From IMG/VR virus record IMGVR_UViG_3300021961_008712, positions 105,751 to 169,750 of that record: DNA of 64,000 nt. One strand, written 5' to 3'. Every line of letters begins with the position of its first letter. The first letter of the stretch is position 1. The notes beneath the pieces were generated by a model that worked only from the letters and a program-made list of their open reading frames with translations, searched no databases and had not been told where the DNA came from. Shown piece by piece: positions 550 through 63,186 of this stretch. The DNA comes from a virus. The position numbers and the translations under genes are program-made.

Positions 550-567
550 ATTATAATAGAAGACAAC

Positions 568-595
568 AGTGTCGTAGCACCACTTTAAAAACACA
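568..595 (+). ncRNA. preQ1-I riboswitch-like aptamer, copy 1
   Basis: AGUG-UCGUAGCAC-CACU-UUAAAAACAC: short P1, UCG..G..C loop and A-rich tail, lying between a promoter and the first ATG of the queD/queE operon. Confidence 0.7.
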
Positions 596-850: not shown

Positions 851-1011
851 TAGAGGTAGTTAAGCACACTTTAGGAATTTGCGGAGAGCATTGGCATCCT
901 AGTGCACTTACAGTATTAGCTAGCAGTCCATTATTTGTAGCTACAGTTAACTACATTAAATGTAAATGCGGCGGATTGTTTAATCATAAAAAAAGTTGTA
1001 ATAATGAGTAA
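847..1011 (+). CDS. Small hypothetical protein (Cys/His-rich)
   Basis: ATGA overlap with the upstream stop gives a start at 847 rather than 790. Confidence 0.55.
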   Translation: MIEVVKHTLGICGEHWHPSALTVLASSPLFVATVNYIKCKCGGLFNHKKSCNNE

Positions 1012-1474
1012 ATTTCAATCAACAAAAGTATTTGATGGATTTAGTACCTGCTTTAGACAATGGAAAGCAGAAGATACTCATTGTAGGTTTCTACATGGGT
1101 ATGGAGTTTCAATTAAAATTTGGTTCGAAGGTGAATTAGATGAAAGAAACTGGGTATGGGACTTTGGCGGTATGAAAAGAGCTAAAGGTAAAATAGACGG
1201 TTTATCTCCTAAAGAATGGTTTGAGTATATGTTTGACCATACTGTTATTGTAGCAGAAGATGATCCGCAATTAGGAAATTATTTCAGAAAAATGGACCGT
1301 AACGGTACAATCCAACTGCGTGAAGTACCTGCTACTGGAGCAGAGAAGTTTGCCGAATTTGTGTACTCAAAAGTTAATCCTTTTATTGAGGAAGAAACTA
1401 ACGGTAGAGTAACTATTACTAAAGTAGAATTCAGAGAACACGATAAAAATTCAGCTATTTATGTCCCTAGGTAG
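1004..1474 (+). CDS. queD: 6-carboxy-5,6,7,8-tetrahydropterin synthase (PTPS/QueD family)
   Basis: HCRFLHGY, DFGG, FDHT and E-F-A motifs. Adjacent to queE. Confidence 0.9.
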   Translation: MSKFQSTKVFDGFSTCFRQWKAEDTHCRFLHGYGVSIKIWFEGELDERNWVWDFGGMKRAKGKIDGLSPKEWFEYMFDHTVIVAEDDPQLGNYFRKMDRNGTIQLREVPATGAEKFAEFVYSKVNPFIEEETNGRVTITKVEFREHDKNSAIYVPR

Positions 1475-2237
1475 AATAGAAGATTATAATAAAGTACTAC
1501 CCATCGTTGAACTTTATACTGCAGTACAATCTGAAGGTTCTAGACAAGGTTATCCGACTATTGTCATAAGAACAACAGGATGTACTCATAGATGCTACTT
1601 TGGAGAAGGTGGCTGGTGTGATAGCTGGTATACTTCTATTCACCCAGAAAAAGGTAGATATACCTTTAATGATATCATAGATATGTACGATAAAAATCCT
1701 CATATCTCAGAAATGATGTTAACCGGTGGTTCTCCTTCAATGCACGGCAAATTAGTAAACGAATTAACACACCTAGCACATGAAAGAGGTATTTTTATCA
1801 CTATGGAGAACGAAGGTAGTCATTACCTTGAGACCGATTATCCTATTGATCTCCTGTCTATTAGCCCTAAGTTCTCTAATAGTGTTCCTATTATTGGCGT
1901 ATCCACACCTCAAGGTGGTATAGTAGATGATAGAATGGTTAAACAGCATAATAAGTATAGATTAAATTTAGACGCTATTAGAAAGTCAATTGCGTATCAT
2001 AAGGACTACCATATTAAACCGGTATTAGATAAAGACTTAACTATATACAGCGAGGTTAGGCAGTTTTTAGATAGCCTAAATATTCCTAATGAAAAAGTCT
2101 GGATGATGCCAGCTGGAGATACAAGAGTTGCATTATTTGAAACTTATCCTGTAGTTATGGATTTTTGTAGAGATGAAGGTTACAGATTTACAGGAAGAGC
2201 ACACATAATGGCATTTGATACACAACGAGAAGTATGA
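1461..2237 (+). CDS. queE: 7-carboxy-7-deazaguanine synthase (radical SAM)
   Basis: E..T.VQSEG, RTTGCTHRC...WCDS, LTGGSP and SISPK motifs. Confidence 0.92.
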   Translation: MSLGRIEDYNKVLPIVELYTAVQSEGSRQGYPTIVIRTTGCTHRCYFGEGGWCDSWYTSIHPEKGRYTFNDIIDMYDKNPHISEMMLTGGSPSMHGKLVNELTHLAHERGIFITMENEGSHYLETDYPIDLLSISPKFSNSVPIIGVSTPQGGIVDDRMVKQHNKYRLNLDAIRKSIAYHKDYHIKPVLDKDLTIYSEVRQFLDSLNIPNEKVWMMPAGDTRVALFETYPVVMDFCRDEGYRFTGRAHIMAFDTQREV

Positions 2238-2488
2238 GTTTTATTATAGGATCAAAATGTATTGGTACTAAAGATGGAGCCTGTATTGCAGTCTGTCCAG
2301 TAGACTGTATTGCAGAAGGAGAAGAATCTATGTACATTAATCCTGAAGTATGCATTGACTGTGGTGCATGTGTCCCGGAATGCCCTGTAGAAGCTATATT
2401 TGATACAGAAGAACAAGCAATCGCAGCCGGAGAATTAGAAGCAGTAAAAAAGAATTATCAATTTTATGGTTTAACATACAAACAATGA
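2234..2488 (+). CDS. fdx: Dicluster-type 4Fe-4S ferredoxin
   Basis: C...CIAVCPVDCI and CIDCGACVPECPVEAI. Confidence 0.92.
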   Translation: MSFIIGSKCIGTKDGACIAVCPVDCIAEGEESMYINPEVCIDCGACVPECPVEAIFDTEEQAIAAGELEAVKKNYQFYGLTYKQ

Positions 2489-2676
2489 CAGCAGAAGAAT
2501 TTGTTATTTGGTTTAGAGGTTTTGTCAACGGTGCTCACCACTTTAATATTACTCCACAGCAATGGGAGTACTTAAAGGAAAAACTAGATGAAGTAGAAAG
2601 TAAAAATACTCTAGCAGATTACACTGCCGGTAATTGGTTTATTAATAACACATGGGAGAAAACAAAATCTACTTAA
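2485..2676 (+). CDS. Hypothetical protein
   Basis: ORF overlapping both neighbours. Confidence 0.6.
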   Translation: MTAEEFVIWFRGFVNGAHHFNITPQQWEYLKEKLDEVESKNTLADYTAGNWFINNTWEKTKST

Positions 2677-3056
2677 CTTGGGAGGATGTCTATGAGCTAT
2701 TAGACAAAATTCATGAACAAACAAAAGGAGAAATCAAATATGTAACCGGTATTCCTAGAGGAGGAATTCTTTTAGCAGTACTTTATTCACATAGATTTAA
2801 TGTACAGTACTTTGAATTTAAAAGTAATCATTATCATGATTTGTTAATTATAGACGATATAGCTGATACAGGAGATACTTTTTTAAACTTAAAAGAAGAC
2901 ATAAAACTACCAAAAACAGCAGCACTTCATTATAAATCCACTTCTAAATTTAAACCTGATTTCTTCGGTAAGGAAGTACCAGGAGATTTCGGTTGGATAG
3001 TCTACCCTTGGGAAAAAAAAGATTCAAAACCAATTCAAGACTATTTGGATAATTGA
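2652..3056 (+). CDS. Type I phosphoribosyltransferase (xanthine/guanine PRT-like)
   Basis: GIPRGG, PRPP-binding LIIDDIADTGDT and C-terminal WIVYPWE. Confidence 0.88.
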   Translation: MGENKIYLTWEDVYELLDKIHEQTKGEIKYVTGIPRGGILLAVLYSHRFNVQYFEFKSNHYHDLLIIDDIADTGDTFLNLKEDIKLPKTAALHYKSTSKFKPDFFGKEVPGDFGWIVYPWEKKDSKPIQDYLDN

Positions 3057-3073
3057 GCAAAAATTCGTATATT
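3044..3073 (+). promoter_or_regulatory. Class I promoter TTTG-N16-TTCGTATATT for folE
   Basis: Fixed-spacing motif copy. Confidence 0.75.
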
Positions 3074-3084
3074 AAGATATAGAT

Positions 3085-3116
3085 AATGTGTCGCAGTACC
3101 ACTTTAAAAACAAAAA
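3085..3116 (+). ncRNA. preQ1-I riboswitch-like aptamer, copy 2
   Basis: AAUGUG-UCGCAGUAC-CACUUU-AAAAACAAAAA directly upstream of the folE ATG. The loop differs from the T. tengcongensis preQ1-I loop UCGCAGUAAC by one A. Confidence 0.72.
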
Positions 3117-3120
3117 ATTA

Positions 3121-3792
3121 ATGAATAACATTGAATTAGAATTAGTAAAAGAAGGATTTGCAAATGGTGTAGCCCCTGGGTTTCCTCTTACAGAAGTACA
3201 GAAAAGTGAAATGATTGAAGAAGCAGCATATGCTTATGGAAAGTTTCTAGATGCTTTAGGATGTGACTGGAGAAATGACCCTAACTCAGCTGATACTCCT
3301 CGTAGAGTAGCTAAAGCATATGTAAGAGATTTATGGAGAGGACGTTATGATGCAATGACTGAAATTACAGCATTCCCTTCTGATGGGTACAACGGTATCG
3401 TACAGGAGTCAAATATACCGGTGACGTCAATGTGTAGCCACCACCACCAAACAATAGGTGGTCGTGTGAGTATTGCCTATGTACCGTCTGAGAATGGTAA
3501 AGTAGTAGGTCTGTCTAAACTCAACCGTATCGTCGAACACTTTGGACGAAGAGGTGCTATACAAGAGCAACTTACTGTAGCCATTCATAATGCAATCGAT
3601 AAGATTTGTGAAGGTAACCTTGGAGTAGCTGTAATGATTGATGCAACTCATAACTGTGTAAGTTGTAGAGGAGTTAAGCACCAAGGAGCTTCAATGCAGA
3701 CAGCTAAACTATCAGGTTGCTTTCTTAACGAAGATTCTGCAAGAGCTGAGTTTTATAAAAACATAGAATTAGCAGGTAAATGTAGATATTAG
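3121..3792 (+). CDS. folE: GTP cyclohydrolase I
   Basis: TPRRVAK, SMCSHH, GLSKLNR, IQEQLT and HNCVSCRG. The ATG at 3121 is preferred over the GTG at 3088, which lies inside the aptamer. Confidence 0.95.
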   Translation: MNNIELELVKEGFANGVAPGFPLTEVQKSEMIEEAAYAYGKFLDALGCDWRNDPNSADTPRRVAKAYVRDLWRGRYDAMTEITAFPSDGYNGIVQESNIPVTSMCSHHHQTIGGRVSIAYVPSENGKVVGLSKLNRIVEHFGRRGAIQEQLTVAIHNAIDKICEGNLGVAVMIDATHNCVSCRGVKHQGASMQTAKLSGCFLNEDSARAEFYKNIELAGKCRY

Positions 3793-3801
3793 GAGTATAT
3801 T

Positions 3802-4527
3802 ATGTTTGAATGGATAAAAGAAAAATATGCGCACCTTGATAAAGACACTGTTCGCTTTAGAGCCGGAAGCCCAAACCCTATTATAAGGTTTGAAAATTTT
3901 CTTCCGGAAACAGAAGCATACAAACTCTATTATGAAAGCCAAAGTATACCAAATGTATACTGGAAAACTTTTGATAGAAATGGAAGTCATATGAAGGAGT
4001 TAAATAAAGTTGAACTTATGCCTATAGCATTCAATATTATTAACTACCTGAATAGCGGACCATTTTTAACTTACTTAGAGACATTAACAGGTATCGAAAG
4101 ACTTATCCCAGATCCCCATTTAATAGGAGCAGGATACAGTAAGAGCTTTAATGGTGATACCTTAAAGATACATACAGATTTTAACTGGAATAACGAATTA
4201 AGCCTTCATCGAGCATTAAGTTTAATAATCTATATTACACCAGAATGGAAGGCTGAATATGGAGGAGCATTGAGCTTTCTCGACAGAGATAGACAGCAAG
4301 AAATTTTTAAAGCTGATTGTTTATTTAATACAGCGTTAATTTGGAGACATGGTAAATATGCTTTTCATGGATACCCAGATCCAATTCAATGTCCATCTCA
4401 TTTGTCGAGAAATACTTTGAGACTGTTTTATTTTGTAAGTACCTCAGAACACAACCCAGATGATCCACCACACCGTAGTTTATACTGGTATGATGAAAAA
4501 TTAAATGAACCTATAGATTTAAAATAA
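3802..4527 (+). CDS. 2OG-Fe(II) oxygenase
   Basis: HTD...HG...R facial triad and W..EYGG motif. Confidence 0.85.
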   Translation: MFEWIKEKYAHLDKDTVRFRAGSPNPIIRFENFLPETEAYKLYYESQSIPNVYWKTFDRNGSHMKELNKVELMPIAFNIINYLNSGPFLTYLETLTGIERLIPDPHLIGAGYSKSFNGDTLKIHTDFNWNNELSLHRALSLIIYITPEWKAEYGGALSFLDRDRQQEIFKADCLFNTALIWRHGKYAFHGYPDPIQCPSHLSRNTLRLFYFVSTSEHNPDDPPHRSLYWYDEKLNEPIDLK

Positions 4528-4528
4528 A

Positions 4529-5698
4529 ATGATTTACGTAAATTTTGGAAAGAACTCGAGTGAAGACCATAAATGGTATTGGGCAGATAAAGGAGCTAAA
4601 GAATATACAGAATGGACCTCTGCTGACAAAAACCCTATTTTCTATTATGATAGACATGATTTAGCTATGAGAAATCTCGAGTTTAGAGACTTTGTTACAG
4701 AAGAAATGTGGGAACATTTTAGAACTAACGAAGAAGCTCTAATAGTAATTAATTTTGCTGATGATTATATTAACTCAGCAGACTTAGATAGATTTGCCTC
4801 TGATATCAAGCTTAGAAATGTAGATAGTTCTAGAGTTATTTTTGTATTGATGGATCAAAATTTCATTGAGTTTGTAGTTAATGGACTAGCAGCTAGAGGA
4901 ATAAATAATATTTCAGCTGATTACATTAATATTCTCATGAAAAGGGTACCTCCTAGGTATAATGATGAAGCAATAAAGACTCATAAATTCTCAATATTTA
5001 GTAGAAATTATTGGGATTGGAGGTTTGATATTTATTTAGAACTTCTTAAAAGAGGAGTATTAGCAAATACTAATTTCTCTTTTCATAATTACAATCCTTA
5101 TACAAATGAATTATACGATGAGGAAAGACTAAAAGCTGATGCGATTAAAAAGGGACACGTAATAACCCAAGAAGTAGAAGAATTTATTAAAGGTGTACCC
5201 TACGATTTGGGGAGCAGAAGTAACAAATTCTCTGATGTTATTTACGAAGCATTAAACACATCAGACTACCATATAGTTGTTGAATCTCATTTTGATCCTT
5301 TTTTAGGAATAAATTATGAGTTTGCTAAAAAAGACTATAATGAATTAACAATCTCTCCTGGATTTATCACAGAAAAAGTATGGAAACCTATTGCGTGTAA
5401 AAGACCGTTTTTTATTGCAGCAACTCCATTTATTTTGAGAGATTTGAAAAAGTTAGGATATAAAACTTTCGGAGAATTTATTGATGAATCCTATGATGAA
5501 ATCGTAGATGATAAACAAAGATTACTTGCTCTAACTTCTGAAATTGAACGCATAAATAATCTTCCAACCGAAGAGTATAATCAGCTTCTAGCTTCTTTGC
5601 AAAATATAGTAGAGTATAACCATAGTGTATATATTAACCAGTGGGAAAATGTAAATTTTACTAAGTACCCTTTTCTACATGGAATAGTTGTACTTTAA
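4529..5698 (+). CDS. Glycosyltransferase-like phage protein
   Basis: C-terminal ITEKVWKPI..KRPF..LKKLGYKTF..IDESYD motif typical of phage GT-B/fucosyltransferase-like proteins. Confidence 0.55.
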   Translation: MIYVNFGKNSSEDHKWYWADKGAKEYTEWTSADKNPIFYYDRHDLAMRNLEFRDFVTEEMWEHFRTNEEALIVINFADDYINSADLDRFASDIKLRNVDSSRVIFVLMDQNFIEFVVNGLAARGINNISADYINILMKRVPPRYNDEAIKTHKFSIFSRNYWDWRFDIYLELLKRGVLANTNFSFHNYNPYTNELYDEERLKADAIKKGHVITQEVEEFIKGVPYDLGSRSNKFSDVIYEALNTSDYHIVVESHFDPFLGINYEFAKKDYNELTISPGFITEKVWKPIACKRPFFIAATPFILRDLKKLGYKTFGEFIDESYDEIVDDKQRLLALTSEIERINNLPTEEYNQLLASLQNIVEYNHSVYINQWENVNFTKYPFLHGIVVL

Positions 5699-5716
5699 AA
5701 TTATTTTTATTATATT
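5687..5716 (+). promoter_or_regulatory. Class I promoter GTTG-N16-TTATTATATT
   Basis: Motif copy 7 nt upstream of ATG 5723. Confidence 0.6.
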
Positions 5717-5722
5717 ATAGAT

Positions 5723-6121
5723 ATGGAAATAGATATTAGACCTTGGGGTAGATATGAAGTGTTGCTAGATGCTGAATATACTAAAGTAAAGTTGATTACT
5801 GTAGAACCTCAAAAAAAACTATCGTACCAATCTCATGAAAAGAGACAGGAATATTGGACTGTTGTTCAAGGTACCTTAACTGTAATTCTTGACGATAAAA
5901 CTATTTCTGTACCTACCGGTGATTCTATTCACATTCCTTTAGGCTCTAAACATAGAGCTTGGAATAAGACAGAAACTCCTGTTCAATTTGTAGAAGTACA
6001 AACAGGAACTTATTTTGGAGAAGATGATATCGTAAGATATGAAGATGATTTTGGAAGAGCCGAGTTAGAACATTTAAGAGATGGAAATTATATTGGCGGA
6101 TTAACAATGCCTAAAAGATAA
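5723..6121 (+). CDS. Mannose-6-phosphate isomerase type II cupin domain
   Basis: RPWGRY, LSYQSH..RQEYW and EVQTG.YFGEDDIVRYED. Confidence 0.9.
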   Translation: MEIDIRPWGRYEVLLDAEYTKVKLITVEPQKKLSYQSHEKRQEYWTVVQGTLTVILDDKTISVPTGDSIHIPLGSKHRAWNKTETPVQFVEVQTGTYFGEDDIVRYEDDFGRAELEHLRDGNYIGGLTMPKR

Positions 6122-6125
6122 AAAA

Positions 6126-6659
6126 ATGGGTAAACAACTAACATTATTTACAGAAGAAGAAATGGGACCTTGTAGCAAGCATGATAACGAGTATGTACCC
6201 TTTGTTTCAGAAGTAGAAGAATTCAATGCCATATTTGGCAAACCTAATAACTATGAACCAACAATCCCAGCAAAAGCCGAGTGGGAGTTCGTATATAACT
6301 TTATACTCGAAGAATTGGAAGAATATAGACAAGCTTGCGAAGACGGAAACATCGTGGAAGTTTTGGATGCTTTGTGTGATATTACTTATGTTTCCCTTGG
6401 GAACGGTGTTATGTTACACGGCCTTAAGGATAAGATATGGCCAGCGTATCAAGAGGTTCAAGCGAGTAATCTTAGTAAAGCTTGCTCTACTGAAGAAGAA
6501 GCCGCACAGACTGTCACCGTACGAGCTAAAGAACAGGGTGAGCCTTGTCATTATGAAAAAGTTAATGGGAAGTTCATTGTCTACAGAACAAGAGATAGAA
6601 AAGTAATGAAATCAGTTAATTACTTTAGACCAGATTTAACTAAGTACTTTAATGGTTAA
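6126..6659 (+). CDS. MazG-like/PRA-PH nucleoside triphosphate pyrophosphohydrolase
   Basis: EELEE..EVLDALCDITYV and EVQASNLSK motifs. N-terminal QLTLF. Confidence 0.85.
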   Translation: MGKQLTLFTEEEMGPCSKHDNEYVPFVSEVEEFNAIFGKPNNYEPTIPAKAEWEFVYNFILEELEEYRQACEDGNIVEVLDALCDITYVSLGNGVMLHGLKDKIWPAYQEVQASNLSKACSTEEEAAQTVTVRAKEQGEPCHYEKVNGKFIVYRTRDRKVMKSVNYFRPDLTKYFNG

Positions 6660-6852
6660 TTTAGAAGATCATATAGTAGTAATTGAAGGTAAAAAGTACG
6701 TACCTTATGAACTTGCTGTAGAAGCTTATACTCAAAAGCATGAGTATGAAGAAAATCAAGCTAAATTTGATGCAGCAATGAAATTAATAGAGACCTCAGT
6801 TCAAGATCTTTCACAAGCTTTAAACATCAGTAAACTAACAGGTGAAGAATAA
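6652..6852 (+). CDS. Hypothetical protein
   Basis: ORF coupled to neighbours. Confidence 0.6.
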   Translation: MVNLEDHIVVIEGKKYVPYELAVEAYTQKHEYEENQAKFDAAMKLIETSVQDLSQALNISKLTGEE

Positions 6853-7393
6853 ACCTATATTAATTTTTGGAGATAGTTTTAGTTCCAACTGGGGCAAAGA
6901 TTCAAGAAGAAGTTGGGTAGATATTATTTCGAAGAAATTTGATGTTGTTAATGTCGCGGAAGCAGGAGTAGGAGAATATAAAATTTTTTCTCAAATAAAG
7001 TCGTTAGATCTGAATAATTTTTCGTATATTATAGGTAATCATACGTCACATTCTCGTGTGCATTCTAGACAGTCAATTCACAATACCGTAATACATGGTA
7101 ATTGTGATTTACTTTATCTAGACAGTATGCACTTAAAAGAAGCAAGATGGTTTTTTGAAAATGTGTATGATGATGATTATTTTAAATTTACTTATGAACT
7201 AATAAGGGATAAGATTAATAGTAAATTACAAGGTTATAGAAGGTTTATTTTTGACCCTTTTTATTCAGAATATAAAGACTCAGTAAGTTTTGTAAATAAG
7301 TGGAAATTTGATTCTAATAATAAAAATCACTTTGATGCAAAAACGAATATTGAGATAGCAGAATTAATAAAAAATAAAATAGTTTATGGTTAG
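6842..7393 (+). CDS. SGNH/GDSL hydrolase-like protein
   Basis: IFGDSFS, NVAEAG and C-terminal NH. Confidence 0.7.
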   Translation: MKNKPILIFGDSFSSNWGKDSRRSWVDIISKKFDVVNVAEAGVGEYKIFSQIKSLDLNNFSYIIGNHTSHSRVHSRQSIHNTVIHGNCDLLYLDSMHLKEARWFFENVYDDDYFKFTYELIRDKINSKLQGYRRFIFDPFYSEYKDSVSFVNKWKFDSNNKNHFDAKTNIEIAELIKNKIVYG

Positions 7394-8207
7394 AATAGCT
7401 CACGAGAGTCCTAAAAGCATCTTTGATACTGTACAGAAGTTTACAGATTACGATTATGCATTAGTTCATCTATTTGAAGAAGATGAAGAGTACTTAAATA
7501 TGTTTAAAAAAGCTGTAAGTAGAGGGAGAGAAGTAATTCTCGATAACTCTATTTTTGAGTTAGAAGAAGCTTTTGATGCAGATAGATTTGCATACTGGAT
7601 TAAAGAATTGAGACCTACTTGGTATATTGTTCCGGATGCATTAGAGGATTCTAAGCGAACTATGAATCAAATGGCTGAATGGAATATGAAATACTCAAAC
7701 GTTCCAGGTAAGAAAATTGGAGTTGTTCAGGGTAAGACATATGAGCAAATTAAAGCTTGCTACATCTTTATGGATGAAATCGCAAAGGTAGACATGATTG
7801 CTATCTCTTTTGACTATTCGTATTATACTGAATCTGTCCCTCATCCTAACAAATACGTAAGTTGGATGCTTGGGAGAGTTAAACTACTCGGAGACTTAAT
7901 GAGAGACGGTGTGATAAACGAGAAGAAGCCTCATCACCTATTAGGATGTGGATTACCTCAAGAATTCCAATACTATAAACACTCAGACTATAATTGGCTG
8001 TATTCCTTAGATACCTCTAATCCGGTAGTACACGGTATTAAGGGTATAGAGTATAAAGACCAAGGACTTTGGAGTAAAGAATCGCAGAAACTATTTGAGA
8101 TGATTAATAGTGAAGTAAGTATGGATCAACTTCATCTCATTAAGTATAATATTCAAAAATTTAGATGGTTTACAAATGGGCAGACGGACGTGGATAGCAT
8201 TTTTTAG
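7386..8207 (+). CDS. dpdA: DpdA-like 7-deazaguanine transglycosylase (TGT fold)
   Basis: ILDNS.FE, IVPD, GVVQG, HLLG and SLDTS match the TGT/DpdA barrel. Located inside the que cluster, with no TGT Zn-binding C-terminus. Confidence 0.75.
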   Translation: MVRIAHESPKSIFDTVQKFTDYDYALVHLFEEDEEYLNMFKKAVSRGREVILDNSIFELEEAFDADRFAYWIKELRPTWYIVPDALEDSKRTMNQMAEWNMKYSNVPGKKIGVVQGKTYEQIKACYIFMDEIAKVDMIAISFDYSYYTESVPHPNKYVSWMLGRVKLLGDLMRDGVINEKKPHHLLGCGLPQEFQYYKHSDYNWLYSLDTSNPVVHGIKGIEYKDQGLWSKESQKLFEMINSEVSMDQLHLIKYNIQKFRWFTNGQTDVDSIF

Positions 8208-8718
8208 TCAGACAGGCGGAGAAATTGCTGACCTATCAGAAAAGCTTGGATTTTGGCCTGATAGAATTATTACAAATGAAAGACCAGATCATCTCAGAAC
8301 TGTAGATCCTAGAATTGAGAAAAGAGGGTACTTTACTTTTAGTAATAAACCAGACCTAGAAGAATATGAAGATCTTCTGGTTTACTTTCCTGGAGCATTA
8401 ATAACTCTTCACGGTTGGTTGAGAATTATGCCTTCTGAAATCTGTGAGAAATTTAGCGTGTTTAATGGGCATCCTGGCTTAATAACATTATATCCAGAAC
8501 TTAAAGGTAAGGATCCTCAAATTAGAGCGTATGAAGGAAAGTATGAAAAAATAGGAGCTGTTTTACATAAAGTTACAGCAGGTGTAGATGAAGGTCCTAT
8601 AATTGCGGAAGATTATTTTCTTAACGAAGGGTTGGAGCTTAACGATATTTTTCGTAAATTAAAAGATATCAGTTTATTTATGTGGTTTGTATACTTAACA
8701 ACGGTTTTAAATGATTAA
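8176..8718 (+). CDS. PurN-like formyltransferase, probable preQ1 formyltransferase (DpdN-like)
   Basis: FSQTG, LHGWLRI, NGHPG and HKVTAGVDEGPII formyltransferase motifs. Overlaps dpdA. Confidence 0.8.
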   Translation: MGRRTWIAFFSQTGGEIADLSEKLGFWPDRIITNERPDHLRTVDPRIEKRGYFTFSNKPDLEEYEDLLVYFPGALITLHGWLRIMPSEICEKFSVFNGHPGLITLYPELKGKDPQIRAYEGKYEKIGAVLHKVTAGVDEGPIIAEDYFLNEGLELNDIFRKLKDISLFMWFVYLTTVLND

Positions 8719-8893
8719 ATGTATGGATAAAGAATTTTATTTAGTAAGAAAAAACGAAAGCAATGCATTTCAAAGATTAATGACGTTCTTTTTAGAACAA
8801 AATAAAAAATATGGTGCTGATTTCGGAGTAGCAGGAATGTACAATACTTTAAATAGGTTTTATGATAAAAAGAATAGCATTAGTAGGGGCTAG
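8711..8893 (+). CDS. Small hypothetical protein
   Basis: ORF overlapping both neighbours. A class I motif at 8631-8660 lies upstream. Confidence 0.4.
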   Translation: MIKCMDKEFYLVRKNESNAFQRLMTFFLEQNKKYGADFGVAGMYNTLNRFYDKKNSISRG

Positions 8894-9383
8894 TAGTACA
8901 GGTAAGACTACTGTCTATGAACTACTTAAAAATAAATTACCTAAATATGAATTCGTAAACGAATCTACTAGAACTGTAGGTAGTTACGGATTTCCTATTA
9001 ATGAAGAAGGTACTGATGCTACTCAACTGGCTATAAGTAGTTTTCATTTAGAAGCTTTACTGCAACCTTATAATCTAGTATTGGATAGGTGTTATATGGA
9101 TTTACTCGTATATTCTAAGTTTATGGATAAATTATCTGTAAAGACATATAACTATATTGAAGATATTTGGAATAGAGTTAAAGGTGAATATACTCACTAT
9201 ATCTACTTTCCTATTGAGTTCGAATCAGTAGATGACGGAGTAAGAAGTGTTAACGAAGAATGGAGAACTAAAATTGATGATGAATTTAAAGCTGTACTAG
9301 AAGGAGTTAGACAGCCTTACTTAACCGTTACTGGTTCTCCTATGCAAAGAGTTGAACAAATATTAAAATTTATAAATGTATAG
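8862..9383 (+). CDS. P-loop nucleotide kinase (AAA_28/dNMP kinase-like)
   Basis: GASSTGKTT, LDR..D..Y and DDGVR. Confidence 0.8.
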   Translation: MIKRIALVGASSTGKTTVYELLKNKLPKYEFVNESTRTVGSYGFPINEEGTDATQLAISSFHLEALLQPYNLVLDRCYMDLLVYSKFMDKLSVKTYNYIEDIWNRVKGEYTHYIYFPIEFESVDDGVRSVNEEWRTKIDDEFKAVLEGVRQPYLTVTGSPMQRVEQILKFINV

Positions 9384-9741
9384 ATACGAAGCAAAACTAG
9401 TCAGAGTAGTAGATGGAGATACTGCCGACGTAATGATCGATCTTGGCTTTGACGTTTGGACTAAAGCTAGATTAAGATTTAATGGAGTAGATACTTGGGA
9501 AAGTAGAACCCGAAATTTAGAAGAAAAAGAAAAAGGTTTACTTGCTAAAGAATTTACTGAATCCTACCTAACACGTAATGATGGAAAATTTCAGATTCAA
9601 TCATTTGGAGTAGGTAAGTACGGTAGAGTGTTAGCAGATATATACATTAAGGGTGAGGAAAAATCTCTAAATCAACTACTAATAGAAAATGGTCATGCGT
9701 ATTTTTACGATGGCGGTACAAAACAAATTTTTAAAGGTTAA
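9376..9741 (+). CDS. Thermonuclease (SNase-like)
   Basis: RVVDGDT, RFNGVDTWE, GKYGRVLA and LIENGHA. Confidence 0.9.
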   Translation: MYRYEAKLVRVVDGDTADVMIDLGFDVWTKARLRFNGVDTWESRTRNLEEKEKGLLAKEFTESYLTRNDGKFQIQSFGVGKYGRVLADIYIKGEEKSLNQLLIENGHAYFYDGGTKQIFKG

Positions 9742-9743
9742 TT

Positions 9744-10652
9744 ATGGAAGAAGTAAAGAATTATCAAGACGTTGTAGCAATTGCATCTAAACACTTAGGT
9801 AAGGTAGGCGGTGATGGGTATAAGGATACTTATGATCCTTCACTACTAGTTAAAATTCCTCGTATCTTAAATAGAGAAGGATATGGTCTTTCCGGAAAAG
9901 AATTTGTAGGAGTTGATGTATGGAATGCTTACGAAGTATCAGCTATTACTACTAAAGGTCAACCTGTTGCTGGTATGCTTAAAATCGTATGTCCCGCGAA
10001 TTCGGAATTTCACGTAGAATCTAAGTCTATAAAATTGTATTTAAACTCTTTTAATATGACGCAGATTGGTAGTACTGCTGCTGACTGTATTACCGGTATT
10101 GAAGCTAGAGTAGAGAGAGACTTAAGAGAACTTTTAGAAGCAGACGTTACAGCAAGATTCTTTACCTCAGAAATGGAATTTGAAAGTCTAACTTTCCAGG
10201 GATACGATCCTTTAGATCAAATAACTAACTTAGATGCTATAGACTTTACAGCCTTTAAATCTGATGCTTCTCAACTAGATGTTGAAGAGCATTCATCTAG
10301 TACCGAAATAAAGTACTCCTCTAATTTACTTAGATCAAATTGTAGAGTTACTAATCAACCGGATTGGGGTGATGTGTTTATTCGAATGGAGGGTAAAAAT
10401 ATTCCCACACCAGAATCAGTAGCTAAGTATATTGTTTCTCATAGAACAGTTAGTCACTTCCATGAGGAGATATGTGAAATGATTTTTAAACATTTGATGG
10501 ATGCTTGTAACCCTGATCAGTTAATGGTGGCTTGTTTATATACTCGAAGAGGAGGTATTGATATTAATCCTATTAGAGCTACACACTCATTATATATACC
10601 GGACTTCTTTACTGAGCCTCTATTTACTATTAAGAAGACCCTTAGACAATAA
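9744..10652 (+). CDS. queF: NADPH-dependent preQ0 reductase, bimodular type
   Basis: ESKSIKLYLNSF QueF motif, RSNCRVTNQPDWG, FHEE and YTRRGGIDINP. Confidence 0.93.
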   Translation: MEEVKNYQDVVAIASKHLGKVGGDGYKDTYDPSLLVKIPRILNREGYGLSGKEFVGVDVWNAYEVSAITTKGQPVAGMLKIVCPANSEFHVESKSIKLYLNSFNMTQIGSTAADCITGIEARVERDLRELLEADVTARFFTSEMEFESLTFQGYDPLDQITNLDAIDFTAFKSDASQLDVEEHSSSTEIKYSSNLLRSNCRVTNQPDWGDVFIRMEGKNIPTPESVAKYIVSHRTVSHFHEEICEMIFKHLMDACNPDQLMVACLYTRRGGIDINPIRATHSLYIPDFFTEPLFTIKKTLRQ

Positions 10653-11899: not shown

Positions 11900-14224
11900 A
11901 TGCAATTAGAAAAAAAGTACTACACAGTCCAAGATAGCGAAACTTTAAAGCTACTATTCCAGCATATTCAAGATTCAGATGTTATAGCAGTCGATACGGA
12001 GACTACCGGACTTAATCCTAGGAAAGATAAAATTGTAGGTTGGTCTGTATCTGGAGAAGAAGGTATAGGTTTCTATCTTCCTACCTTAGTCTGGAACTTT
12101 CAGAAAGATGAATTAGAACTGCAGACTATTGATGATACTTCTACTGAAGTAATTTCTAAAAATTTACTAAAAGCACTGATTGGAAAAAAGCTAGTATTTC
12201 ACAACGCTTCTTTCGACGTTCAGTTTATTAATAACTATTTTGGTATTAACTTACTACCTAGTGTTTGGGTTGATACTGGATTACTTGTTCATACAGTCTA
12301 TGAAGAAGGAGCCTTCGGGTTTGGTAGTCCTTTCGGACTAAAATCTATTGCTATCATGAATCAGGAAGCTCTTGGCCTGAATGTGCAAGAAGCAGCTAAC
12401 CAAGAGCAGTTGGAACTGAAAGAAAGTATTAAGAAAAATGGTGGTTCTGTCACTAAAGAAAGTTTTGAAATTTATAAAGCTGATCTGGATATTCTTAGCA
12501 AGTATGCTTCAGCTGATACTGATCTTACCCTTCGTATTTGTAATCTTTATTTGGGTAAGCTTAGAGACGAAGGTTTGGAAGAATTCTTCTTCAACGAGGA
12601 AGTAATGCCAATCTACCGTGAGGTAACTGTACCTATGGAAGCTTACGGTGTAGATCTTGATATGGAGTTATTAGCTAAAACTTATGCTGAGATTACCGAG
12701 GATCAAGAAAAGAATAAAGAGATTGTAATGAAGTCTCTATTAGCTCTTCCGGAAGTTAAACAGTGGGTAGTAGATACTGCTATGACTAACTACCCTGTAT
12801 CCCATAAAGGTAATTGGGCTCAAAAATTAGTTGAGAGATACTCTCTACCTTTACCTAAATCAGAGAAAACAGGCAAGTATACCCTTACTCAAAAAGCTAT
12901 AGAAGAGTTAGAAGACTCTCCTCAAAAACAGTTTCTTCTTACCGGTGAAAACCATTATATTAGTGAAGTAGAGCAAGCTAGAATTTCTATGAGTCTATGG
13001 AAAGAGCAAAATGATGGAGAATATCTCAATATTCAATCTAAAGCTCACTTAGGTGAAATAGTATTTAAATACATGGGTATTAAACCTAAAGTATCTGGTG
13101 CTAATACCAAGTCTGGTAGAGATAAGTTTGATATGGATATGGTAGAAGAGCTAGCTAAAGAGTATCCTTGGGCAGAAAATCTTCGTATCTACAATAAGCT
13201 CTTAAAAATAAAGTCTACTTATATTGAACGTTTTGTTAACGGTAATGAGGACGGTAAATACTACTTCTACTTTAAGCAGAACGGTACTGTATCAGGTCGA
13301 TATGGATCAGATGCACAACAGCTTCCTAAACCACTTGAACCAGGTGAAGATGCTCCTGTAATAGAGAAGTATGTTAATATTGTTAGAGCATTCCTGATTG
13401 CAGGTAAGGGTAGAAAAGTAATTGATTGTGATTATGAATCTCTAGAACCTCACTGCTTTGCCTCAGTATCCGGTGATGAAAAACTACAAGAGATTTTTAA
13501 CAATAATTACGACTTCTATTCGTATGTAGCAATACAGACTGAAAAACTTGAAGGTGTCTCTGCTGATAAATCTGCTCCTAACTACTTAAAGAAGCTAGAC
13601 CCAGTTAAAAGAAATAAAGCTAAAGCTTATTCGTTAGGGGTTGCATACGGTATGGAAGCTTATGCTCTCAAAATGACGTTAGATGTTGATCAGAAAACTG
13701 CTGAAGGATTAATTAAAGGTTACTTGGATGGGTTTCCTGGTCTTGCTAAATGGAGAGAAAATTCTAGACGCCAAGTTAAGGATGAAGGATATATTAAAAA
13801 CTATGTAGGACGCGTTCGACACTTACCTAGAGTGAAGCAAATTTACTCTAAGTTTGGTGATAGAATGATGGACTGGAGATTTAGAAAAGAACTAGAGCTA
13901 CAATACGGTAAAGATCAAGTAATGCAAGCATATCGAGACTATCGAAACGGACTTAATAACTGCTTAAACTTTCAGTTGCAGTCTCTTGCCGCTGCGGTTG
14001 TTAACCGTGCTGCTCTTGCTATAAACAGAAAAGCAAAAGAACTAGGAGTAGATGCTTGTGTACAAGCTCAGGTACATGACCAGTTGGTTATTAACGTTAG
14101 AGAAGATCAAGCAGAAATGTTTGCTCCTTATGTTAAAGATCTAATGGAAAGTACCACACAGCTTCCTGGAGTTACTTTGAAAGCACCACCTGAAATTTCA
14201 ATTAACTGGAGAGATGGACACTAA
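11900..14224 (+). CDS. polA: Family A DNA polymerase (3'-5' exonuclease + polymerase)
   Basis: DTETTG, HNASFD, YASAD, GTVSGR, motif A DYESLE, motif B KAYSLGVAYG and motif C QVHDQ. Confidence 0.95.
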   Translation: MQLEKKYYTVQDSETLKLLFQHIQDSDVIAVDTETTGLNPRKDKIVGWSVSGEEGIGFYLPTLVWNFQKDELELQTIDDTSTEVISKNLLKALIGKKLVFHNASFDVQFINNYFGINLLPSVWVDTGLLVHTVYEEGAFGFGSPFGLKSIAIMNQEALGLNVQEAANQEQLELKESIKKNGGSVTKESFEIYKADLDILSKYASADTDLTLRICNLYLGKLRDEGLEEFFFNEEVMPIYREVTVPMEAYGVDLDMELLAKTYAEITEDQEKNKEIVMKSLLALPEVKQWVVDTAMTNYPVSHKGNWAQKLVERYSLPLPKSEKTGKYTLTQKAIEELEDSPQKQFLLTGENHYISEVEQARISMSLWKEQNDGEYLNIQSKAHLGEIVFKYMGIKPKVSGANTKSGRDKFDMDMVEELAKEYPWAENLRIYNKLLKIKSTYIERFVNGNEDGKYYFYFKQNGTVSGRYGSDAQQLPKPLEPGEDAPVIEKYVNIVRAFLIAGKGRKVIDCDYESLEPHCFASVSGDEKLQEIFNNNYDFYSYVAIQTEKLEGVSADKSAPNYLKKLDPVKRNKAKAYSLGVAYGMEAYALKMTLDVDQKTAEGLIKGYLDGFPGLAKWRENSRRQVKDEGYIKNYVGRVRHLPRVKQIYSKFGDRMMDWRFRKELELQYGKDQVMQAYRDYRNGLNNCLNFQLQSLAAAVVNRAALAINRKAKELGVDACVQAQVHDQLVINVREDQAEMFAPYVKDLMESTTQLPGVTLKAPPEISINWRDGH

Positions 14225-62661: not shown

Positions 62662-62747
62662 GCCTCGGTGGTGGAATAGGTAGACACGCCGGACTTAAAA
62701 TCCTGTGGGCTGTAGAGCCCGTGCCGGTTCGACCCCGGCCCGAGGTA
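62662..62747 (+). tRNA. tRNA-Leu(UAA)
   Basis: Acceptor GCCTCGG/CCGAGGT, anticodon loop CTTAAAA, long variable arm and T-arm GCCGG-TTCGACC-CCGGC. Confidence 0.92.
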
Positions 62748-62764
62748 CTAAAAAAATAAAAGAC

Positions 62765-63028
62765 ATGACATTTAAAAATTTAAGTTTTACCGACCATCCA
62801 GTTATACCTGGAGCAATTCAAGCAGCTATTATTTGTAATAATGGCAAAAGAATTAGCATTGTAGCTGGAACTAATTTATACAGTCATAGTAAAGGCGGAA
62901 TAAGAGCTGCTGTTGATAATCCAGAAGAAGTGATTAGCTTCGAGGTCCTTGTAGAGGGTGAGGAAGATGTGAGAGGTTTTCAAAGTAGGCAAGATATAGA
63001 TAATATACTTGCTGTGAATAATCTCTAG
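62765..63028 (+). CDS. Hypothetical protein within tRNA cluster
   Basis: ATG at 62765 after tRNA-Leu. The track start at 62705 lies inside the tRNA. Confidence 0.65.
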   Translation: MTFKNLSFTDHPVIPGAIQAAIICNNGKRISIVAGTNLYSHSKGGIRAAVDNPEEVISFEVLVEGEEDVRGFQSRQDIDNILAVNNL

Positions 63029-63035
63029 AAAACAG

Positions 63036-63109
63036 GGACCAGTAGCTCAGCTGGATAGAGCATCTGCCTTCTAAGCAGACGGTCGCAGGTTCGAGTCCTG
63101 CCTGGTTCA
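63036..63109 (+). tRNA. tRNA-Arg(UCU)
   Basis: GGACCAG/CTGGTTC acceptor, TCTGC-CTTCTAA-GCAGA anticodon arm and canonical D/T arms. Confidence 0.95.
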
Positions 63110-63114
63110 CACAT

Positions 63115-63186
63115 TGATCTATGGTGTAATTGGCAACACGACAGATTTTGGTTCTGTAATTTAAGGTTCGAGTCCTTATAGATCAA
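63115..63186 (+). tRNA. tRNA-Gln(UUG)
   Basis: TGATCTA/TAGATCA acceptor, ACAGA-TTTTGGT-TCTGT and TAAGG-TTCGAGT-CCTTA. Confidence 0.93.

What the first reader, a model, noticed from the sequence alone, without database searches (positions are those of the whole stretch)
1004..10652. Formyl-preQ1 (fdPreQ1-type) DNA hypermodification cluster with a possible nucleotide-level route
Seen: queD, queE, folE, bimodular queF and a TGT-fold DpdA-like gene overlapping a PurN-like formyltransferase. Also present are a purine PRTase (2652), a MazG-like NTP pyrophosphohydrolase (6126) and a P-loop nucleotide kinase (8862). Established (from memory): FolE-QueD-QueE-QueC-QueF give preQ1, and DpdA plus the formyltransferase DpdN give 7-(formylaminomethyl)-7-deazaguanine in Flavobacterium Immuto-type phage DNA. 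Inference: PRTase or DpdA could make the modified nucleotide, the kinase could phosphorylate it and MazG could deplete dGTP. That would give pre-replicative, near-complete G replacement rather than post-replicative base exchange.
Basis: partly seen in the sequence, partly recalled or inferred. Interest (0 to 1): 0.72.

Follow-up and report, generated by a model that had tools for sequence, protein, structure and literature searches.

The report
Phage guanine-replacement (formyl-preQ1) gene cluster
This phage carries the known gene set that replaces every guanine in its DNA with a formylated 7-deazaguanine, and its conserved neighbour genes suggest the swap may be made on free nucleotides before replication rather than on finished DNA, as currently published.

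Summary
Window 1004-10652 encodes QueD, QueE, FolE, bimodular QueF, a DpdA3-family TGT-fold protein overlapping a PurN-like formyltransferase (DpdN), a purine PRTase, a MazG and a small P-loop kinase. QueC lies 4 kb upstream of the window. The cluster is syntenic with Flavobacterium phage immuto (DpdA3 75.6% identical), whose DNA has all G replaced by fdPreQ1 (Cui 2023). It is therefore a new member of a known system.

The mechanism is open. The literature calls DpdA3 post-replicative. I found that DpdA3 sits beside a kinase of the deoxynucleoside/thymidylate-kinase fold:
- in 18 of 18 GenBank DpdA3 phages;
- in 102 of 118 metagenomic loci;
- in 17 of 31 deep lineages.

It also often sits beside a dNTP pyrophosphohydrolase of varying fold (MazG, HD, NUDIX, dUTPase-like). 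Four DpdA1 control phages have a sliding-clamp gene there instead and no kinase. Half of the MazG homologues start with a QLxLF clamp-binding-like motif. This favours a T4-like nucleotide-pool route (about 0.5) over DNA-level exchange (about 0.35). The PRTase is not universal and more likely recycles guanine.

The scan flagged this stretch before only in overlapping windows of the same genome, not on other DNA.

The parts
567..595 (+). Conserved leader element 1 (candidate preQ1-sensing RNA) just before ORF 599-850, upstream of queD/queE
   Evidence: The same ~28-nt motif occurs 41 times in related loci. It is always on the sense strand and 4-12 nt before an ATG of folE, queD, queE or a small leader ORF. 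AGTG..CACT versus GGTG..CACC is a compensatory change. Rfam gives no PreQ1 match.
1004..1474 (+). QueD (6-carboxytetrahydropterin synthase)
   Evidence: PF01242, E 6.6e-14. 70% identical to immuto QueD.
1461..2237 (+). QueE (radical-SAM 7-carboxy-7-deazaguanine synthase)
   Evidence: TIGR03365, E 2.6e-14, below the curated cut-off. 72% identical to immuto QueE.
2234..2488 (+). 2x[4Fe-4S] ferredoxin, probably the electron donor for QueE (inference)
   Evidence: PF00037/PF13237. Present in 27 related ORF sets directly after queE.
2652..3056 (+). Small 6-oxopurine phosphoribosyltransferase; proposed to recycle released guanine
   Evidence: PF00156. PDB relatives are S. solfataricus GpT-1/2, P. 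horikoshii purine PRTase and E. coli XGPRT. Homologues occur in immuto and phiST-group phages but not in CP220.
3086..3120 (+). Conserved leader element 2, directly before folE
   Evidence: Rfam finds only DUF805 RNA at 11.7 bits, E 4.
3121..3792 (+). FolE (GTP cyclohydrolase I); start revised from GTG 3088 to in-frame ATG 3121
   Evidence: PF01227, E 1.1e-43. In relatives the leader element precedes the ATG.
3802..6121 (+). Accessory insert: 2OG-Fe(II) oxygenase (3802-4527), unknown 389 aa (4529-5698), cupin (5723-6121). Not part of the conserved core.
   Evidence: Pfam hits. The oxygenase and the 389-aa gene are absent from essentially all of the related loci first fetched (L005-L084); the 389-aa gene has a single weak match (36%, L031). 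A relative of the 389-aa protein is fused to a cupin.
6126..6659 (+). MazG-like (d)NTP pyrophosphohydrolase with N-terminal QLTLF motif (nt 6135-6149)
   Evidence: PF01503 and phrog_671. QLxLF is found in 28 of 57 unique homologues and in 0 of 3169 background ORFs.
6842..7393 (+). Unknown 183-aa ORF inserted before dpdA3; unique to this phage among the loci compared
   Evidence: No Pfam, PHROG or NCBIfam hit. No match in related loci. Atlas neighbours are viral hypotheticals.
7386..8207 (+). DpdA3-family minimal TGT-fold transglycosylase
   Evidence: 75.6% identical to immuto DpdA and 42% to CP220 gp056. The family HMM scores 404 bits here, 279 for CP220, 78 for phiST and under 5 for DpdA1 proteins and TGT. 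AF2 pLDDT 96.4; Foldseek top hits are TGT at E 1e-7.
8176..8718 (+). DpdN, PurN-like formyltransferase; overlaps dpdA3 by 32 nt
   Evidence: PF00551. The N, H and D catalytic residues align with E. coli PurN. DpdA3-DpdN fusion proteins exist (P0050, P0097).
8862..9383 (+). Small P-loop kinase of the dNK/TMPK/NRK fold
   Evidence: PF13521. AF2 pLDDT 94.8. Foldseek hits are the NadR ribosylnicotinamide kinase domain, deoxyadenosine, deoxyguanosine and deoxycytidine kinases, and thymidylate kinases. It lies beside DpdA3 in most lineages.
9376..9741 (+). Staphylococcal-nuclease homologue (accessory; possibly host DNA breakdown)
   Evidence: PF00565, E 1.1e-10. Present in 19 related ORF sets.
9744..10652 (+). 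Bimodular QueF (preQ0 to preQ1 reductase)
   Evidence: PF14819 plus PF14489; TIGR03138, E 1.7e-73.
11900..14224 (+). Family A DNA polymerase; conserved downstream neighbour of the module
   Evidence: 68-87% identical in related loci. Annotated in immuto as DNA polymerase family A.

Best explanation
This is the guanine-replacement module of an immuto-like phage of Flavobacteriia.

Shown by homology: FolE, QueD, QueE, QueC (just upstream of the window) and QueF make the free base preQ1 from GTP. A DpdA3-family minimal TGT-fold enzyme exchanges guanine for preQ1. The PurN-like DpdN formylates the aminomethyl group. The phage DNA therefore carries 7-(formylamino)methyl-7-deazaguanine in place of G.

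Inferred: the exchange happens in the deoxynucleotide pool, following T4 hydroxymethyl-C logic.
1. MazG, possibly held on the sliding clamp through its QLTLF motif, splits dGTP to dGMP. This keeps dGTP away from the polymerase.
2. DpdA3 swaps the base on dGMP (or on deoxyguanosine).
3. DpdN formylates the product.
4. The adjacent dNK/TMPK-fold kinase rephosphorylates the modified monomer, which host kinases would not accept.
5. Host NDK and the phage family A polymerase finish the job.
6. The PRTase returns released guanine to GMP, and so to GTP, the substrate of FolE.

A conserved leader RNA before folE and the queD operon may sense free preQ1.
For: Module identity:
- Synteny and 46-77% protein identity with immuto.
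- Immuto DNA is fully fdPreQ1-substituted (PMC10516641).
- DpdA3 has a TGT fold and belongs to the DpdA3 family by HMM.
- DpdN keeps the PurN catalytic N, H and D and is fused to DpdA3 in other phages.

Kinase linkage, favouring a pool-level route:
- The kinase lies beside DpdA3 in CP220 (HD+AAA_33 fusion, DpdA3, AAA_28 kinase) and in phiST (MazG, DpdL, AAA_18 kinase, DpdA3).
- A metagenomic contig has NUDIX, DpdA3 and AAA_28 with 4-nt gene overlaps.
- L217 has NUDIX, dUTPase, DpdA3, GNAT, kinase.
- Counts: 102 of 118 loci and 17 of 31 lineages clustered at 60% identity. All 18 GenBank phage records with DpdA3 hold the kinase.
- The kinase fold matches small-molecule (deoxy)nucleoside and nucleotide kinases, not a ParB-like ATPase.

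Other support:
- dNTP pyrophosphohydrolases of at least five families recur next to DpdA3.
- The controls 9g, Iggy, BcepGomr and Dp-1 (DpdA1, partial replacement) have no kinase there. They have a sliding-clamp gene instead.
- The MazG QLxLF motif is in 28 of 57 homologues and 0 of 3169 background ORFs.
- From the literature: DpdA3 alone did not work in E. coli, and free ADG nucleoside was seen in CP220-infected cells.
Against: - Every characterised TGT or DpdA enzyme acts on a polynucleotide. No activity on mononucleotides is known, and none was tested here.
- The authors who defined DpdA3 conclude that insertion is post-replicative.
- dNTP pyrophosphatases and dUTPases are common in phage replication modules. 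BcepGomr and Dp-1 also have one within about 4 kb.
- The kinase family also occurs in 52+ Streptomyces phages without DpdA3.
- 14 of 31 DpdA3 lineages showed no recognisable kinase within 3 kb, although many of those loci are short.
- Immuto's own MazG lacks the QLxLF motif.
- The substrate specificities of MazG, the kinase and the PRTase are unknown.
Confidence: 0.5

Rival explanations
1. The module and end product are the same, but the published mechanism holds. The phage replicates with dGTP, and DpdA3 then exchanges every G for preQ1 directly in DNA. DpdN formylates either in DNA or on the free base. The kinase, MazG and PRTase are accessory: they salvage the released guanine back to GTP and carry out general pool sanitation. 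Alternatively, the P-loop protein supplies the ATP-dependent help that bacterial DpdA gets from DpdB.
For: - All known TGT/DpdA enzymes work on polymers, and Cui 2023 proposes this mechanism.
- Bacterial DpdA needs an ATPase partner (PMC10164549), so a conserved NTPase neighbour is not by itself evidence for a nucleotide route.
- The preQ1 exchange is effectively irreversible in TGTs (established knowledge), so 100% conversion is conceivable.
- A PRTase fits guanine salvage in this model too.
Against: - The partner has a dNK/TMPK/NRK small-molecule kinase fold, not a ParB-like fold.
- This model gives no role to a dGTP-destroying enzyme, still less a clamp-tethered one.
- DpdA1 phages, which do act on DNA, lack the kinase and keep dpdA next to the clamp gene.
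- Every other known complete base replacement in phages is pre-replicative (established knowledge: T4 hmC, SPO1 hmU, S-2L Z).
Confidence: 0.35
2. A ribonucleotide route. The PRTase couples preQ1 (or formyl-preQ1) to PRPP. The kinase makes the diphosphate. The phage ribonucleotide reductase makes the deoxy form, and NDK makes the dNTP. DpdA3 only mops up residual G.
For: - The PRTase sits inside the que operon next to folE/queE in several lineages and, in phiST, beside a dNMP-kinase-like gene and the RNR.
- All four reference phages encode an RNR.
- From memory: PRTases act on 7-deazaguanines in toyocamycin and tubercidin biosynthesis (ToyH, TubE).
Against: - CP220 reaches 100% replacement without any PF00156 PRTase.
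- A subclade of immuto-like loci lacks the PRTase within 10 kb.
- DpdA3, not the PRTase, is the universal component.
- The PRTase resembles ordinary 6-oxopurine salvage enzymes.
Confidence: 0.08
3. The genes serve RNA rather than DNA. The phage boosts queuosine precursor supply, or modifies tRNA (its own or the host's), and its DNA keeps normal G.
For: The phage encodes tRNAs, and TGT-fold enzymes classically act on tRNA.
Against: - The closest cultured relative, with the same gene set, has no dG in its DNA.
- DpdN and the kinase have no role in queuosine synthesis.
- The module lies in the replication region, between the RNR and the DNA polymerase.
Confidence: 0.02

Closest known systems
[quoted passage not shown] 2023, PMC10516641)
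   Same: Same gene order: QueD, QueE, PRTase, FolE, MazG, DpdA3, DpdN, kinase, QueF, PolA. Protein identities are 46-77%. The predicted product is the same.
   Different: - This phage has extra genes inside the cluster: ferredoxin, 2OG oxygenase, 389-aa unknown, cupin, 183-aa unknown and SNase.
- dpdA3 and dpdN overlap here, whereas immuto has a small ORF between them.
- Its MazG carries an N-terminal QLTLF motif that immuto lacks.
- DNA identity is only about 77%, and only over dpdA3.
Campylobacter phage CP220 (dADG) and Cellulophaga phage phiST (dDG), the other DpdA3 phages
   Same: A DpdA3 (42% and about 25% identity) is flanked by a small P-loop kinase and a dNTP-hydrolase-type gene. G replacement is complete.
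   Different: - They have no QueF and no DpdN, so the side chains differ.
- CP220 uses an HD-kinase fusion instead of MazG and has no PRTase.
- phiST has DpdL and an AAA_18-type kinase upstream of dpdA3.
T4 hydroxymethylcytosine pathway (gp56 dCTPase, gp42 dCMP hydroxymethylase, gp1 dNMP kinase) and the S-2L/Z-genome pathway (MazZ, DatZ, PurZ). Works-like comparison from established knowledge.
   Same: The same three-part logic is proposed: destroy the canonical dNTP to its monophosphate, modify the monophosphate, then rephosphorylate it with a dedicated kinase. Two DpdA3 neighbours hit Pfam dGTP_diPhyd_N, the MazZ-type family.
   Different: There is no homology in the modifying step. Here it would be a base exchange by a TGT-fold enzyme, which has never been shown on a mononucleotide. 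No enzyme specificities were tested.
Bacterial Dpd system (DpdA/DpdB/DpdC) and phage DpdA1/DpdA2
   Same: TGT-fold enzyme, use of 7-deazaguanine bases made by the queuosine pathway, and an anti-restriction role.
   Different: - DpdA3 is not detectably similar in sequence to DpdA1.
- There is no ParB-like DpdB partner.
- The neighbour is a nucleoside/nucleotide-kinase-fold protein rather than a clamp gene.
- Replacement is complete rather than 0.1-30%.

Membership tests
DpdA3 subfamily of DNA-guanine transglycosylases (Cui 2023) | Sequence relationship to the named members (immuto gp206, CP220 gp056, phiST CGPG_00065) and not to DpdA1 or TGT | tested here: met
   75.6% and 42% identity. The family HMM scores 404 bits for the window protein, 388 for immuto, 279 for CP220 and 78 for phiST, against under 5 bits for 9g, Iggy and BcepGomr DpdA and for E. 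coli TGT.
DpdA3 subfamily of DNA-guanine transglycosylases (Cui 2023) | TGT-like (beta/alpha)8 fold | tested here: met
   AF2 pLDDT 96.4, pTM 0.92. The 50 best Foldseek PDB hits are all TGT, at E 1e-7 to 1e-6 and TMq 0.59-0.66.
DpdA3 subfamily of DNA-guanine transglycosylases (Cui 2023) | Catalytic aspartates equivalent to the TGT general acid and nucleophile | tested here: inconclusive
   D53 (LDNS), D84 (PD) and D209 (DTSNP) are at least 90% conserved, and their motifs resemble the TGT DSGG, FDEC and DMFD motifs. However, hhalign to E. coli TGT gave only 13.7% probability over the central part, and no residue-level superposition was available.
DpdA3 subfamily of DNA-guanine transglycosylases (Cui 2023) | Complete replacement of G in virion DNA; substrate is DNA | not testable with these tools
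   Needs LC-MS of virion DNA and enzyme assays. Whether the substrate is DNA or a nucleotide is the open question.
DpdN preQ1/dPreQ1 formyltransferase | Formyl_trans_N domain with the PurN catalytic Asn, His and Asp, co-encoded with DpdA and FolE-QueF | tested here: met
   PF00551, E 1.9e-8. The NGHPG and VDxG motifs align with PurN N106, H108 and D144. 52% identical to immuto DpdN. Fusions to DpdA3 exist.
preQ1 biosynthesis pathway (FolE, QueD, QueE, QueC, QueF) | All five enzymes are encoded | tested here: met
   Four are in the window. QueC is at G000:C1:101164-101973, outside the window (PF06508, E 1e-38).
Pre-replicative base-replacement systems (T4 hmC type) | A dNTP pyrophosphohydrolase for the canonical nucleotide, plus a dedicated kinase for the modified monophosphate | tested here: inconclusive
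   Both enzyme types are present and conserved next to DpdA3. Their specificity for dGTP and for the modified dNMP cannot be read from sequence.
Pre-replicative base-replacement systems (T4 hmC type) | The modifying enzyme acts on the mononucleotide | not testable with these tools
   Requires an assay of DpdA3 with dGMP, dG or dGTP versus DNA.
Bacterial DpdA/DpdB-type DNA modification | ParB-like ATPase partner (DpdB) | tested here: not met
   The conserved partner has a dNK/TMPK/NRK kinase fold. No ParB-like gene lies in the cluster.
preQ1-I riboswitch (Rfam RF00522), for the two leader elements | Match to the Rfam covariance model | tested here: not met
   There is no PreQ1 hit at gathering threshold or at E up to 10, even on 66-nt stretches. 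The element is nonetheless strongly conserved and correctly placed.

The most novel reading that the evidence does not exclude
DpdA3 is not a DNA transglycosylase. It is a deoxynucleotide (dGMP or deoxyguanosine):7-deazaguanine base-exchange enzyme. It forms the core of a conserved three-step pre-replicative pathway: a dGTP pyrophosphohydrolase (in many phages tethered to the sliding clamp), then base exchange with optional acylation, then a dedicated kinase. This would be the first TGT-fold enzyme acting on a monomer. [quoted passage not shown]
Probability: 0.45. Interest if true: 0.85.

Novelty: new member of a known kind. Interest (0 to 1): 0.6.

Why it matters
The cluster itself is an uncultured relative of a system described in 2023, so its presence is not new.

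What matters is how three phage groups manage to replace every G. The literature moved from 'modified dGTP' (2019) to 'post-replicative DpdA3' (2023) without any enzyme assay, and DpdA3 failed to work when expressed in E. coli.

The conserved operon found here (dNTPase, DpdA3, kinase), its absence from DpdA1 phages, and the clamp-binding-like motif on MazG give a concrete and cheap experiment: DpdA3 with dGMP and preQ1. That experiment could establish a new enzyme activity and a route to enzymatic synthesis of 7-deaza-dNTPs.

Related loci also point to an undescribed acetylated variant.

Tried and rejected
- **PDB sequence searches.** DpdA3, MazG and the kinase gave nothing significant. Fold searches were needed instead.
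- **hhalign of the DpdA3 family against E. coli TGT.** Probability was only 13.7%, too weak to map catalytic residues.
- **Net charge, pI and the CxCxxC zinc motif, DpdA3 versus DpdA1.** Not discriminating. Both are acidic and both lack the motif. I therefore dropped the argument that DpdA3 lacks the nucleic-acid-binding zinc subdomain.
- **Rfam search for preQ1 riboswitches.** Negative four times.
- **Reaching distant DpdA3 loci.**
  - P0091 as a seed returned no loci, and alignment A2 had no stretch conserved enough to search with.
  - The CP220 and phiST seeds returned only a few loci: 5 and 4.
  - A degenerate KPHHLLGC DNA pattern worked instead.
- **PRTase as the universal entry point.** Rejected, because CP220 has none.
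- **The kinase as exclusive to deazaguanine phages.** Rejected, because Streptomyces BE-cluster phages carry it next to an FkbM-type methyltransferase.
- **The DpdN N-terminal loop (FSQxGxE) compared with the PurN phosphate loop (SGNGSN).** Similar in shape but with a conserved Glu. It gives no conclusion about a phosphate-bearing substrate.

Full report
**What is there.**
The window is the last 64 kb of a 169,750-bp IMG/VR virus record that CheckV rates complete. Genes run on the + strand throughout, at about 34% G+C. Between 1004 and 10652 the ORFs and family searches give, in order:
- QueD, QueE, a 2x[4Fe-4S] ferredoxin and a 63-aa ORF;
- a 134-aa purine-type PRTase and FolE;
- a 2OG-Fe(II) oxygenase, a 389-aa unknown and a cupin;
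- a MazG-like pyrophosphohydrolase, a 66-aa ORF and a 183-aa unknown;
- a 273-aa protein with no Pfam hit (phrog_19058) and a PurN-like formyltransferase that overlaps it by 32 nt;
- an AAA_28 P-loop kinase, a staphylococcal-nuclease homologue and a bimodular QueF.

A family A DNA polymerase follows at 11900.

QueC is missing from the span. It lies about 3.8 kb before the window start, after the RNR genes and before a carbamoyltransferase.

**What it is.**
[quoted passage not shown] It is 42% identical to an unannotated protein of Campylobacter phages of the CP220 group.
- The immuto region is syntenic: QueD, QueE, PRTase, FolE, 'hydrolase' (MazG), DpdA, formyltransferase, 'thymidylate kinase', QueF, then PolA.
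- Cui et al. 2023 (PMC10516641) showed that immuto DNA contains no dG and 345,000 fdPreQ1 per 10^6 nucleotides. They named the transglycosylase subfamily DpdA3 and the formyltransferase DpdN.
- An HMM of the family scores the window protein at 404 bits, immuto at 388, CP220 at 279 and phiST CGPG_00065 at 78. DpdA1 proteins and E. coli TGT score below 5 bits.
- The AlphaFold model is very confident (pLDDT 96.4). Its best 50 PDB matches are all tRNA-guanine transglycosylases, so the 'TGT fold' claim is now a tool result.
- DpdN keeps the PurN Asn, His and Asp. In at least two other phage lineages it is fused to the C-terminus of DpdA3, which matches the overlapping genes here.

The cluster is therefore a new, uncultured member of the known immuto-type fdPreQ1 system. 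Near-complete replacement is expected, by analogy with a measured relative.

**The open part: where the base is exchanged.**
[quoted passage not shown] They also report that DpdA3 could not be made to work in E. coli. They cite free ADG nucleoside in CP220-infected cells. The 2019 papers had proposed a modified dGTP. I found no later paper on DpdA3 in the held library.

**The kinase travels with DpdA3.**
- In CP220, dpdA3 is preceded by an HD-phosphohydrolase fused to an AAA_33 kinase domain, and followed by an AAA_28 kinase.
- In phiST the order is MazG, DpdL, an AAA_18 P-loop protein (the 'unknown' CGPG_00066), then DpdA3.
- A metagenomic contig has NUDIX, DpdA3 and AAA_28 with 4-nt overlaps between genes.
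- I gathered 204 DpdA3 loci from IMG/VR. Among loci with at least 2 kb on both sides, 102 of 118 have a kinase of this family within 3 kb. So do 17 of 31 clusters at 60% identity, most often as DpdA3-DpdN-kinase-QueF.
- In GenBank phages, the CP220-type kinase is found in exactly the 18 records that hold DpdA3, plus Streptomyces BE-cluster phages.
- The kinase model (pLDDT 94.8) matches the NadR ribosylnicotinamide kinase domain, deoxyadenosine, deoxyguanosine and deoxycytidine kinases, and thymidylate kinases. It is a small-molecule kinase, unlike the ParB-like ATPase DpdB that bacterial DpdA needs (PMC10164549).

**A dNTP-hydrolysing gene of changing fold recurs beside DpdA3.**
- MazG in immuto-like phages, phiST, L201 and L113.
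- HD in CP220.
- NUDIX in P0091 and L217.
- dUTPase or DCD-like genes in L201, L217 and L109, and dUTPase_2 in L169.
- Two neighbours match the MazZ-type family dGTP_diPhyd_N.

This is weaker evidence, because such genes are common in phages.

**Controls.**
Four DpdA1 phages with partial modification (9g, Iggy, BcepGomr, Dp-1) have no small P-loop kinase within 4.5 kb. In all four, dpdA sits next to the sliding-clamp and polymerase genes.

**The MazG N-terminus.**
It reads MGKQLTLF. A QLxLF motif at the extreme N-terminus, followed by a variable acidic linker, occurs in 28 of 57 distinct homologues. It occurs in none of 3169 other ORFs in the first 45 residues. It matches the bacterial beta-clamp-binding consensus (from memory). 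If that reading is right, a dNTP-destroying enzyme sits at the replisome. That makes sense for excluding dGTP and makes little sense in a purely post-replicative model.

**The PRTase.**
It is not universal. It is absent from CP220 and from a subclade of immuto-like loci. It resembles ordinary 6-oxopurine salvage enzymes. I read it as recycling the guanine released by DpdA3 into GMP and then GTP, the pathway's own precursor. This fits either model.

**Weighing.**
- The neighbourhood evidence, the kinase fold, the DpdA1 contrast and the general rule that complete base replacement in phages is pre-replicative favour a T4-like route. In that route dGTP goes to dGMP (MazG), the base is exchanged on the monomer (DpdA3), the product is formylated (DpdN), rephosphorylated (kinase) and polymerised.
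- Against this, no TGT-fold enzyme is known to use a monomer, no specificity is known for any of these enzymes, and the kinase also occurs without DpdA3.
- I put the pool route at about 0.5, DNA-level exchange at about 0.35, the PRTase/RNR route at about 0.08 and an RNA-only role at about 0.02.
- Arguments from charge and from the missing zinc motif were dropped because DpdA1 shares both features.

**Other things seen.**
- *Leader element.* A 28-nt element stands 4-12 nt before the start codons of folE and of the first ORF of the queD operon. It occurs twice here (567-595 and 3086-3120) and 41 times in related loci, with one compensatory pair. It moves the folE start to ATG 3121. By eye it resembles a preQ1-I aptamer, but Rfam does not call it.
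- *Possible acetyl variant.* In locus L217 a GNAT acetyltransferase occupies the DpdN position, which suggests an acetylated preQ1 base in other phages.
- *Accessory genes.* The 2OG oxygenase, the 389-aa protein (with cupin-fused relatives) and the 183-aa ORF are not conserved with the module. They look like accessory inserts.

**Verdict.**
The fdPreQ1 assignment is supported and already known from a relative. The nucleotide-level route is unproven, but it is now backed by specific, testable comparative evidence. Earlier notes of this scan on overlapping windows of the same genome raised the same idea, the clamp motif and the leader elements. I tested the last two partly, and they held except for the Rfam membership.

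Noticed in passing
window 567-595 and 3086-3120: Two copies of a conserved leader element, (A/G)GTGTCG(T/C)AG(C/T)ACCAC..TAAAAACA, lie just before the start codons of a small ORF ahead of queD/queE and of folE. There are 41 occurrences in related phage loci, always on the sense strand and just upstream of que/folE starts, with AGTG/CACT versus GGTG/CACC covariation. It is a candidate preQ1-sensing RNA, but Rfam gives no PreQ1 match.
   Followed up: partly
window 6135-6149 (MazG residues 4-8): An N-terminal QLTLF matches the beta-clamp-binding consensus. QLxLF is conserved in 28 of 57 MazG homologues of this clade and absent from the first 45 residues of 3169 other ORFs. Immuto's own MazG lacks it.
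   Followed up: partly
L217:1979-5402 (IMG/VR contig): The operon is NUDIX, dUTPase, DpdA3, GNAT acetyltransferase, kinase, x, QueF. A GNAT replaces DpdN in the same slot. This suggests an N-acetyl-aminomethyl-7-deazaguanine DNA base, which is not among the eight derivatives described.
   Followed up: partly
window 3088 vs 3121: The longest folE ORF starts at GTG 3088 and would swallow the conserved leader element. The in-frame ATG at 3121 is the likely start (223 aa).
   Followed up: yes
L103:13165-16392 (G000:C1:101164-104391, upstream of the window): QueC is followed by a weak sulfotransferase-like ORF and a 552-aa NodU/CmcH-type carbamoyltransferase. Whether these modify DNA, nucleotides or something else is unknown.
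   Followed up: no
window 3802-6121: A 2OG-Fe(II) oxygenase, a 389-aa protein of a Pfam-less viral family, and a cupin are inserted between folE and mazG. One relative of the 389-aa protein is fused to a cupin, so those two probably work together. The oxygenase and the 389-aa gene are not conserved with the deazaguanine module; cupin homologues do occur in some related loci.
   Followed up: partly
L085:5207-6618 (Streptomyces phage Karimac): In Streptomyces BE-cluster phages the same kinase family overlaps an FkbM-type methyltransferase gene and lies near a MazG. This may be another pairing of a small-molecule-modifying enzyme with a kinase, in phages whose DNA chemistry I do not know.
   Followed up: no
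L090, L234, L235, L236 (phages 9g, Iggy, BcepGomr, Dp-1): In all four DpdA1 phages sampled, dpdA lies within three genes of the sliding-clamp gene and the DNA polymerase. This linkage fits action on DNA at the replisome and contrasts with DpdA3.
   Followed up: partly
window 62662-63186: Three tRNA genes (Rfam tRNA, 51-71 bits).
   Followed up: no
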